This document shows, piece by piece, positions 54,990-55,068 of a stretch of 64,000 nt of DNA (the stretch's first letter is position 1; each line of letters opens with the position of its first letter). A model generated the notes under the pieces. That model ran no database searches. It was not told where the DNA came from and saw only the letters and a list, made by a program, of their open reading frames with translations. A program made the position numbers and the translations under genes. This stretch comes from a virus, in the IMG/VR virus record IMGVR_UViG_3300022839_000011, positions 1 to 64,000 of that record; one strand, 5' to 3'.

Positions 54990-55068
54990 TGGCGCACCCG
55001 GAGGGACTCGAACCCCCATCGATCCAATTACGGTACTACCGCTTAGAAGGCGGTTCCGATACGGGTGC
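54990..55068 (-). tRNA. non-canonical tRNA-Arg(TCT) lacking a 5' D-arm
   Basis: Perfect acceptor GCACCCG/CGGGTGC+GCCA, ACCGC-CTTCTAA-GCGGT, canonical T arm. Confidence 0.75.

What the first reader, a model, noticed from the sequence alone, without database searches (positions are those of the whole stretch)
54990..55068. Topologically rewired tRNA-Arg(UCU): D-loop relocated 3' of the anticodon arm
Acceptor, anticodon and T arms are intact, which argues against decay. Only TATCGGA links acceptor to anticodon arm, while the 'variable' region is AGTACCGTAATTGGATCGAT. CGG can pair with CCG to rebuild a D-stem-like helix, followed by a D-loop-like TAATTGGAT carrying the conserved GG. The L-shape could thus be kept with permuted strand connectivity, perhaps evading host tRNA nucleases or the neighbouring endonuclease.
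Basis: partly seen in the sequence, partly recalled or inferred. Interest (0 to 1): 0.8.

Follow-up and report, generated by a model that had tools for sequence, protein, structure and literature searches.

The report
Rewired non-cloverleaf phage arginine tRNA
This 79-base phage gene is very probably a working arginine tRNA whose D-stem strand and D-loop lie after the anticodon arm instead of before it. Many phages share this non-cloverleaf layout, and I found no paper that describes it.

Summary
Window 55068-54990 (minus strand) has intact acceptor, anticodon (UCU) and T arms, a 7-nt 5' linker and a 20-nt "variable" region. Rfam's tRNA model scores it 39.1 bits only by deleting the D arm; ARAGORN misses it.

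It is not decay. I collected 158 distinct relatives from viral contigs, and a related type occurs in 249 cultured-phage records, including Felix O1.

- The proposed 3-bp helix (CGG/CCG here) covaries: 23 triplet combinations, 93% of cells paired against 50% in shuffles.
- The segment after it behaves as a D-loop. UA(A/G)N0-3GG is always present. Its third base covaries with the base before the T stem (A:U 153, G:C 4), like the Levitt pair.
- The base after GG is A in 139/142 Arg-anticodon members and U in 13/15 Ile-type members, matching the A20 and U20 synthetase identity rules.
- The order reads 1-9, 22-47, 10-21, 48-76.
- A broken canonical tRNA-Arg(UCU) 5' half lies 13 nt upstream, and canonical UCU genes are depleted where rewired UCU genes occur.

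No expression or charging data exist. The nuclease-evasion idea is untested, and endonuclease neighbours are not clearly enriched. This scan has already found the family on other DNA.

The parts
54990..55068 (-). Whole rewired tRNA-Arg(UCU) gene, 76 nt plus encoded CCA
   Evidence: Sequence. Rfam tRNA 39.1 bits. Family model R1 95.8 bits.
55062..55068 (-). Acceptor stem 5' strand GCACCCG (positions 1-7). It pairs with 54994-55000.
   Evidence: All 7 pairs change on both sides in relatives; 98.6% of cells paired.
55060..55061 (-). U8 A9
   Evidence: UA follows the acceptor stem in 157 of 158 family members.
55056..55059 (-). U + CGG, the upstream strand of the rebuilt D stem. It is equivalent to canonical positions 22-25 and continues directly into A26 and the anticodon stem.
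   Evidence: Pairs with CCG at 55031-55033. There are 23 triplet combinations; 92.6% of cells pair against 49.8% in shuffles.
55055..55055 (-). A26-like single nucleotide between the D-stem strand and the anticodon stem
   Evidence: One nucleotide at this place in all 158 members.
55038..55054 (-). Anticodon arm ACCGC CUUCUAA GCGGU. The anticodon UCU lies at 55045-55047. U33, A37 and A38 are present.
   Evidence: All 5 stem pairs change on both sides. The loop is the standard 7 nt.
55034..55037 (-). Linker AGUA, equivalent to variable-loop positions 44-47
   Evidence: Length is 4-5 nt in 111 of 158 members. The second base is G in 129 of 158, like G45.
55030..55033 (-). CCG + U, the downstream strand of the rebuilt D stem. 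It is equivalent to positions 10-13 and continues directly into the D-loop.
   Evidence: Same covariation as the upstream strand. Register-shift controls give 21-53% pairing.
55019..55029 (-). D-loop-like AAUUGGAUCGA: A14, A15, U16, U17, G18, G19, A20, three further nucleotides, then an A21-like A
   Evidence: The motif UA(A/G)N0-3GG is present in 158 of 158 members, including 100 collected without any constraint on this region. A follows GG in 139 of 142 Arg members. A precedes U48 in 155 of 158.
55018..55018 (-). U48-like base, partner of A15 (Levitt-type pair)
   Evidence: 15:48 is A:U in 153, G:C in 4 and other in 1. In the unconstrained set all 4 G15 have C48 (Fisher p 3e-7).
55001..55017 (-). 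T arm GGGGG UUCGAGU CCCUC
   Evidence: Standard T loop. Three stem pairs covary and two are invariant G-C.
54990..55000 (-). Acceptor 3' strand CGGGUGC, discriminator G73, encoded CCA
   Evidence: G73 is within the bacterial Arg identity set (PMC9976931 Table 1).
55082..55116 (-). Orphan 5' half of a canonical tRNA-Arg(UCU): acceptor strand, complete D arm with A20, and anticodon stem 5' strand. It breaks after U33-U34. A 13-nt spacer (55069-55081) follows.
   Evidence: 28 nt are identical to intact canonical tRNA-Arg(UCU) genes on other viral contigs (L252, L253, L259).
54172..54927 (-). Endonuclease-like ORF (251 aa) immediately downstream
   Evidence: PHROG HNH / homing endonuclease families at E 2e-6 to 2e-4. 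Pfam REase_MTES_1575 at 23.7 bits, below its cut-off of 38.2.

Best explanation
The gene encodes a functional elongator tRNA-Arg(UCU) that reads AGA. It contains every element of a class I tRNA, but segment 10-21 (the 5' strand of the D stem plus the D-loop) is transposed to lie between positions 47 and 48. The chain therefore runs 1-9, 22-47, 10-21, 48-76. CGG (23-25) pairs with CCG (10-12) around the anticodon arm and stacks on the anticodon stem through A26, as the normal D stem does. The D-loop then leaves the far end of this helix, places G18-G19 against the T loop, pairs A15 with U48 and presents A20 to arginyl-tRNA synthetase. The canonical 7/5 acceptor-T minihelix serves RNase P, EF-Tu and the ribosome.

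Shown here: the helix, the motif, the 15:48 and position-20 couplings, the family, and the local replacement of a canonical gene. Inferred: the L-shape, processing, charging and decoding.

In this phage the gene has taken the place of a canonical tRNA-Arg(UCU), whose 5' half survives upstream.
For: - Helix: 23 different triplet combinations. 92.6% of cells pair against 49.8 +/- 2.2% when partners are shuffled, and 21-53% in shifted registers. On a gapless 40-sequence alignment all three pairs change on both sides, and pairs 11:38 and 12:37 have no unpaired cell.
- D-loop motif: present in 100 of 100 sequences collected with a pattern that left this region free.
- Tertiary pair: 15:48 is A:U in 153 and G:C in 4.
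- Identity: A after GG in 139/142 Arg-anticodon members and U in 13/15 Ile-type members (p 3e-16). A73 in 15/15 Ile-type members. The switch recurs inside four separate structural subgroups. These match the bacterial Arg (A20, C35, U/G36, A/G73) and Ile (U20, A73) identity sets in PMC9976931 Table 1.
- Anticodons: only Arg and Ile-type anticodons occur.
- Substitution: canonical tRNA-Arg(tct) is present in 8/116 loci with a rewired UCU gene and in 14/35 loci with other rewired genes (p 1e-5). A truncated canonical tRNA-Arg(UCU) lies 13 nt upstream here.
- Demand: AGA is the commonest Arg codon in the phage's long ORFs (41%), and no other Arg tRNA was found in the 88.7-kb record.
- Re-ordering: putting 10-21 back before 22-47 in silico makes ARAGORN, 158 members as standard tRNAs with the expected anticodon, against 0/158 in the native order.
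Against: - No RNA, processing, charging or decoding data.
- Thermodynamic prediction does not find the 3-bp helix. RNAalifold omits it. The single-sequence minimum-energy fold is a different structure at -30.9 kcal/mol, against -27.6 for the rewired fold, and the z-score of -1.45 is unremarkable.
- The pair next to the anticodon stem (25:10) is mismatched in 21% of members, and 13:22 is usually U.U.
- The re-ordering control with cut points shifted by 4 nt still gave 97/158 ARAGORN calls, so that test discriminates only moderately.
- Sequences are related, so the association p-values overstate independence.
- The genome record is about 42% complete, so another Arg tRNA could lie outside it.
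I could not learn which part.
Confidence: 0.8

Rival explanations
1. It is a D-armless tRNA of the mitochondrial kind. The 3-bp helix merely lengthens the anticodon arm, and the UAAUUGGAUCGAU stretch is a flexible connector with no D-loop role. The molecule would work with a relaxed, non-canonical elbow.
For: There is no D hairpin at the usual place. The helix is continuous with the anticodon stem across a small internal loop. Energy models do not need or predict a D-like domain.
Against: A flexible connector would not keep UA(A/G)N0-3GG in 158/158 members, covary its third base with the base before the T stem, or switch the base after GG between A and U with the anticodon. The T loop is fully canonical, unlike in most armless mitochondrial tRNAs.
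Confidence: 0.08
2. It is a tRNA-like RNA that does not decode. For example it could be a decoy for a host tRNA-targeting enzyme, a processing signal in the tRNA-cluster transcript, or a regulator.
For: No direct evidence of charging or ribosome use. Phage tRNA clusters do hold tRNA-like elements. Gene finders and most annotators do not call it.
Against: The anticodon loop keeps U33, A37 and a 7-nt size, and CCA is encoded here. Anticodons are limited to Arg and Ile types, and synthetase identity nucleotides match them. Rewired UCU genes and canonical UCU genes tend to exclude each other. This one sits where a canonical UCU gene was destroyed.
Confidence: 0.07
3. It is a decaying or rearranged pseudogene left by recombination in a tRNA cluster rich in endonucleases.
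For: An obviously broken tRNA half lies 13 nt upstream and an endonuclease-like gene lies downstream. ARAGORN does not call it.
Against: The same layout is kept in 158 distinct sequences from very different phages, with compensatory changes in all four helices. It also occurs in 249 cultured-phage records. Near-identical copies on other contigs are unchanged.
Confidence: 0.03

Closest known systems
Canonical class I bacterial and phage tRNA-Arg(UCU) (Rfam RF00005). Examples are the intact genes at L252 and L253 from viral contigs, and the E. coli argU type.
   Same: 7-bp acceptor stem of the GCRCCCG type, anticodon arm CUUCUAA, 5-bp T stem with a UUCGA loop, a variable loop of 4+1 nt, U8, A14, R15:Y48, G18G19, A20, G73 and CCA.
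   Different: Segment 10-21 lies after position 47 instead of after position 9. There is no D hairpin, and the D stem is closed by the anticodon arm rather than by the D-loop.
Mitochondrial D-armless tRNAs (metazoan mt-tRNA-Ser(AGY), armless nematode and mite tRNAs)
   Same: No D hairpin between the acceptor and anticodon stems, with only a short linker. They are functional despite not being cloverleaves (my own knowledge; PMC4394434 was listed but not read).
   Different: Those tRNAs have lost the D-loop elements and usually the canonical T-loop contacts, and they work with specialised mitochondrial factors. Here every core element is kept in a new order, and the RNA must work with an ordinary bacterial translation apparatus.
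Circularly permuted tRNA genes of the red alga Cyanidioschyzon merolae, and permuted two-piece tmRNA (one is encoded in this window at 45553-45802, Rfam RF04321)
   Same: Segment order in the gene differs from the textbook order while the folded shape is preserved.
   Different: In C. merolae the permutation is undone by processing, so the mature tRNA is canonical (my own knowledge). In tmRNA the molecule stays in two pieces. Here the 5' and 3' ends are in the normal place, the permutation is internal, and it should persist in a single mature chain.
Non-canonical cloverleaf tRNAs (8/4 and 9/3 allo-tRNAs, Mukai et al. 2017, PMC5389517)
   Same: Natural bacterial and phage tRNAs that depart from the standard layout and are found mainly in metagenomes.
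   Different: Those change stem lengths but keep the order of arms. None has the D-loop after the anticodon arm.
Homing endonucleases in phage T4 tRNA clusters (SegB) and T4-type control of endonuclease translation
   Same: An endonuclease-like gene sits inside a tRNA cluster next to a replaced tRNA gene. Its ribosome-binding site and AUG are buried in a strong hairpin whose loop holds TATAAATA.
   Different: This concerns the neighbourhood, not the tRNA. Endonuclease neighbours are not clearly enriched for the rewired family. The SegB comparison comes from my own knowledge.

Membership tests
tRNA (Rfam RF00005, canonical cloverleaf) | Score at or above the curated gathering threshold | tested here: met
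   39.1 bits against 29.
tRNA (Rfam RF00005, canonical cloverleaf) | 7-bp acceptor stem, discriminator, 5-bp T stem with T-loop, 5-bp anticodon stem with a 7-nt loop and U33 | tested here: met
   All three stems covary in relatives.
tRNA (Rfam RF00005, canonical cloverleaf) | D hairpin between positions 9 and 26 | tested here: not met
   Only 5 nt lie between A9 and the anticodon stem. Rfam deletes 13 D-arm positions. ARAGORN makes no call.
tRNA (functional definition) | Aminoacylated by a synthetase and used on the ribosome | not testable with these tools
   Support is indirect only: identity nucleotides and complementary distribution with canonical genes.
Rewired phage tRNA family (defined here by model R1; also noted earlier in this scan) | 7-nt 5' linker UA-N-NNN-N, whose NNN pairs with the 3 nt preceding U-A-(A/G)-N0-3-GG, and A-U before the T stem | tested here: met
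   The window gene has all of these. R1 scores it 95.8 bits. The same parse fits 158/158 members.
Bacterial tRNA-Arg identity set | A20, C35, U/G36, A/G73 (PMC9976931 Table 1) | tested here: met
   A follows G18G19, the anticodon is UCU, and the discriminator is G. Whether that A sits in the ArgRS pocket cannot be tested here.
Class II (long variable arm) tRNA | The variable region forms its own stem-loop, and the D arm is present | tested here: not met
   The 20-nt region has no internal helix. It pairs with the 5' linker instead. Some records nevertheless label relatives tRNA-Ser or tRNA-Leu.
Mitochondrial-type D-armless tRNA | Loss of D-loop elements (G18G19, A14, R15) | tested here: not met
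   All of these are present and conserved, in a displaced position.

The most novel reading that the evidence does not exclude
The rewiring is adaptive rather than neutral. By changing the chain connectivity of the core while keeping the surfaces read by ArgRS or IleRS, EF-Tu and the ribosome, the phage would gain Arg and Ile tRNAs that escape a host tRNA-targeting defence nuclease. Alternatively, at the DNA level, it would gain a gene that a tRNA-gene-specific homing endonuclease cannot cut. Either would explain why the design spread through unrelated phages and is limited to two amino-acid identities. Independently of the reason, it would be the first natural non-cloverleaf tRNA topology shown to work in a bacterial translation system.
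Probability: 0.2. Interest if true: 0.9.

Novelty: new variant of a known kind. Interest (0 to 1): 0.8.

Why it matters
The cloverleaf order of arms is treated as universal for tRNAs used by bacterial ribosomes, with exceptions known mainly from mitochondria.

- **Fold:** a widespread phage family that keeps the tertiary core but permutes the chain would show that the L-shape, not the cloverleaf connectivity, is what translation requires.
- **Engineering:** it offers a natural scaffold for tRNA engineering and orthogonal tRNA design.
- **Annotation:** it exposes a blind spot, because ARAGORN missed all 158 members and most GenBank records leave the gene unannotated. Phage tRNA repertoires, and codon-usage studies built on them, therefore undercount Arg and Ile decoders.
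- **Testability:** well-studied phages such as Felix O1 carry it, so the claim can be tested directly.

Tried and rejected
- **Alternative pairing:** UCGG (5' linker) with UCGA just before the T stem gives 4 bp in this sequence. Across the family it is at chance (50% of cells, all four pairs in 5/158), so I rejected it.
- **Own hairpin in the variable region:** none found.
- **RNAalifold on the gapless alignment:** it does not predict the 3-bp helix. The case for the helix rests on covariation, not energy.
- **Endonuclease linkage as a family trait:** no clear enrichment.
- **Cellular origin:** the pattern scan of 185,579 species genomes gave 24 hits. Model R1 confirmed 22. Two were chance matches: L237 is not a tRNA and L245 is an ordinary tRNA. 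Nearly all are metagenome-assembled contigs. The one isolate genome (Brucella cytisi, L233) has phage-like neighbours.
- **Closer relatives of this phage with a canonical gene at the same site:** The search for related loci returned only near-identical contigs, and megablast against cultured phages found nothing.
- **Literature:** eight full-text searches found no description of this layout. Mukai et al. 2017 describes other non-canonical tRNAs only.
- **Earlier check:** I could not find which part of an earlier similar claim "fell".

Full report
**The sequence**

The window is the first 64 kb of an 88.7-kb, 36% G+C viral record estimated at about 42% complete. It carries a minus-strand tRNA cluster from about 54 to 62 kb and a permuted tmRNA.

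The minus strand of 55068-54990 reads GCACCCG UA U CGG A ACCGC CUUCUAA GCGGU AGUA CCG U AAUUGGAUCGA U GGGGG UUCGAGU CCCUC CGGGUGC G CCA. ARAGORN does not call it. Rfam's tRNA model reaches 39.1 bits (threshold 29), but only by deleting the D arm and inserting 17 nt in the variable region. The single-sequence minimum-energy fold is uninformative (-30.9 kcal/mol, z -1.45).

**Relatives**

- A sensitive blastn search found the same odd layout, unannotated or labelled tRNA-Ser, in phages of Stenotrophomonas, Agrobacterium, Limnohabitans, Salmonella and Alishewanella.
One fixed the UAAUUGG..AUG..GGUUCGA part and left the anticodon free. The other fixed only GUAU-N9-CUUCUAA and the T loop and left the variable region free.
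- Together they gave 158 distinct sequences with this layout: 121 UCU, 13 ACG, 5 UCG, 3 CCU, 6 GAU, 8 UAU, 1 CAU and one mis-parsed.
- A second blastn search found the Salmonella-phage type in 249 cultured-phage records, including Felix O1 at about 25951-26029. Most are unannotated, and a few are labelled tRNA-OTHER or tRNA-Leu.
- ARAGORN called none of the 158.

**The helix**

I anchored each sequence on the UA(A/G)N0-3GG motif, without optimising any pairing. I then compared the three bases before the motif with bases 4-6 of the 5' linker.

- 23 triplet combinations occur, including CGG/CCG, CUC/GAG, CCC/GGG, ACC/GGU, CGC/GCG, CAC/GUG and CAG/CUG.
- 92.6% of cells pair. Shuffling partners among sequences gives 49.8 +/- 2.2%, and shifted registers give 21-53%.
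- On a gapless 40-sequence alignment, the count of structure pairs finds changes on both sides at all three pairs. Two of them have no unpaired cell, and slid controls give 40-45% pairing.
- The pair next to the anticodon stem is weaker, with mismatches in 21% of members.
- The competing pairing UCGG/UCGA, possible in this sequence, is at chance across the family.
- RNAalifold does not predict the short helix. In this sequence it adds only 1.4 kcal/mol.

**The displaced D-loop**

All 100 sequences collected with the variable region unconstrained carry UA(A/G)N0-3GG directly after the helix strand.

- The third base of the motif and the base just before the T stem are A:U in 153, G:C in 4 and other in 1. 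In the unconstrained set all four G have C (p 3e-7). This is the behaviour of the R15:Y48 Levitt pair.
- An A precedes that last base in 155/158 members, like A21. The second linker base is G in 129/158, like G45.
- The base after GG is A in 139/142 members with Arg anticodons and U in 13/15 with Ile-type anticodons (p 3e-16). All 15 Ile-type members have A73.
- The A/U switch recurs within four structural subgroups that hold both kinds of anticodon.
- These are the bacterial identity sets: A20, C35, U/G36 and A/G73 for Arg; U20 and A73, among others, for Ile (PMC9976931 Table 1).
- Only Arg and Ile-type anticodons were found, also in a covariance-model search.

**Mapping to the canonical numbering**

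Strand polarity fixes the mapping. The upstream strand runs straight into one base and then the anticodon stem, as 22-25 and 26 do. The downstream strand runs straight into the D-loop, as 10-13 do.

The chain is therefore 1-9, 22-47, 10-21, 48-76. In other words, segment 10-21 has been moved to between positions 47 and 48. The linker of 4 nt plus U48 equals a normal 5-nt variable loop.

The three new junctions (9 to 22, 47 to 10, 21 to 48) join residues that, from my knowledge of the yeast tRNA-Phe structure, lie in the same or neighbouring layers of the core. This geometric step is inference. Moving 10-21 back in silico makes ARAGORN, 158 as standard tRNAs with the expected anticodon, against 0/158 in native order. 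A control with cut points shifted by 4 nt still gave 97/158, so this test is only moderately discriminating.

**Evidence for use as a tRNA**

- Thirteen nucleotides upstream (55116-55082) lies the 5' half of a canonical tRNA-Arg(UCU). It has an acceptor strand, a full D arm with A20 and the anticodon stem 5' strand.
- Twenty-eight of its nucleotides are identical to intact canonical genes on other viral contigs. It is broken after U33-U34. So here a canonical gene was destroyed and the rewired gene stands in its place.
- Across contigs, canonical tRNA-Arg(tct) accompanies a rewired UCU gene in 8/116 loci, but accompanies rewired genes of other anticodons in 14/35 loci (p 1e-5).
- AGA is this phage's commonest Arg codon (41% in 59 long ORFs). 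No other Arg tRNA was found in the record, which is incomplete.

**The neighbourhood and the evasion idea**

- The downstream ORF (54927-54172) has weak endonuclease matches.
- Its Shine-Dalgarno sequence and AUG lie in a strong hairpin (-20.7 kcal/mol, z -7.2) whose loop holds TATAAATA. From my own knowledge, this is the T4 way of restricting endonuclease translation to late transcripts.
- Felix O1, SSBI34 and SOVA965 also have an HNH gene beside their copy.
- Family-wide, a recognisable endonuclease follows about 8-12% of rewired genes and about 5-8% of ordinary tRNAs in the same contigs. This is a crude comparison and shows no clear enrichment.
- Nothing here bears on escape from RNA-level nucleases.

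**Distribution and literature**

In 185,579 species genomes the unconstrained pattern hit 24 places, of which 22 are real members. Nearly all lie on metagenome-assembled contigs, and the one isolate genome has phage-like neighbours. The family is therefore overwhelmingly phage-borne.

Eight full-text searches found no description of this layout. Known non-canonical tRNAs (PMC5389517) keep the order of arms.

This scan has recorded the same family many times on other DNA. One such note says that part of a similar claim later fell, and I could not learn which part. In case it concerned detection, my wording is deliberately narrow: Rfam's model does detect this gene, and some records do annotate relatives under other names.

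**Verdict**

The gene is a real, conserved member of a large phage family. It is very probably functional, though no experiment has tested this. The adaptive reason for the rewiring is unknown.

Noticed in passing
window 55082-55116 (-), spacer 55069-55081: Orphan 5' half of a canonical tRNA-Arg(UCU) with an A20-type D-loop, cut after U33-U34. Its 28-nt core is identical to intact canonical genes on contigs L252, L253 and L259. It marks replacement of a canonical gene by the rewired one.
   Followed up: yes
window 54922-54974 (-): Strong hairpin (-20.7 kcal/mol, z -7.2). It buries the GAGG and AUG (54927) of the endonuclease-like ORF and carries TATAAATA (54946-54953) in its loop. It looks like T4-style control that allows endonuclease translation only from late transcripts.
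   Followed up: partly
window 54172-54927 (-): 251-aa ORF with weak matches to PHROG HNH / homing endonuclease families and to Pfam REase_MTES_1575 below its cut-off. Its endonuclease class is unsettled.
   Followed up: partly
window 55192-55276 (-): 85-nt tRNA with a CAU anticodon and a variable region of about 13 nt. Rfam scores it only 38.9 bits, and ARAGORN calls it Met.
   Followed up: no
window 57245-57318 (-): tRNA-like gene with a CCA (Trp-type) anticodon region and a wobble-rich acceptor stem. Rfam gives 33.3 bits and ARAGORN does not call it.
   Followed up: no
window 45553-45802 (-): Permuted (two-piece) tmRNA gene, Rfam RF04321 at 91.8 bits. This is a second RNA with permuted segment order in the same phage.
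   Followed up: no
L013:264-351, L036:2144-2231, L102:12875-12963 and about 30 similar viral contigs: 88-nt tRNA-like genes with a UAU anticodon. They have an ordinary-looking D arm (GUUU AAUGGUA AAAC) and also the AGAUAAUUGG motif in a 21-nt variable region. Model R1 scores them 39-41 bits. They could be a relative or an intermediate of the rewired design.
   Followed up: no
L107:3788-3864 with 3965-4041; L106:11437-11515 with 11520-11596; L032:1210-1286 with 1331-1407; L236:2367-2440 with 2447-2522: Rewired tRNA genes often occur as adjacent pairs on one contig. Where read, the anticodons differ: L028 has ACG and GAU, and L116 has ACG and UCU.
   Followed up: no
window 53915-53932 (-): Isolated T-arm-like 18-nt match (model positions 51-68, 11.5 bits) downstream of tRNA-Leu. 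It may be another tRNA remnant.
   Followed up: no
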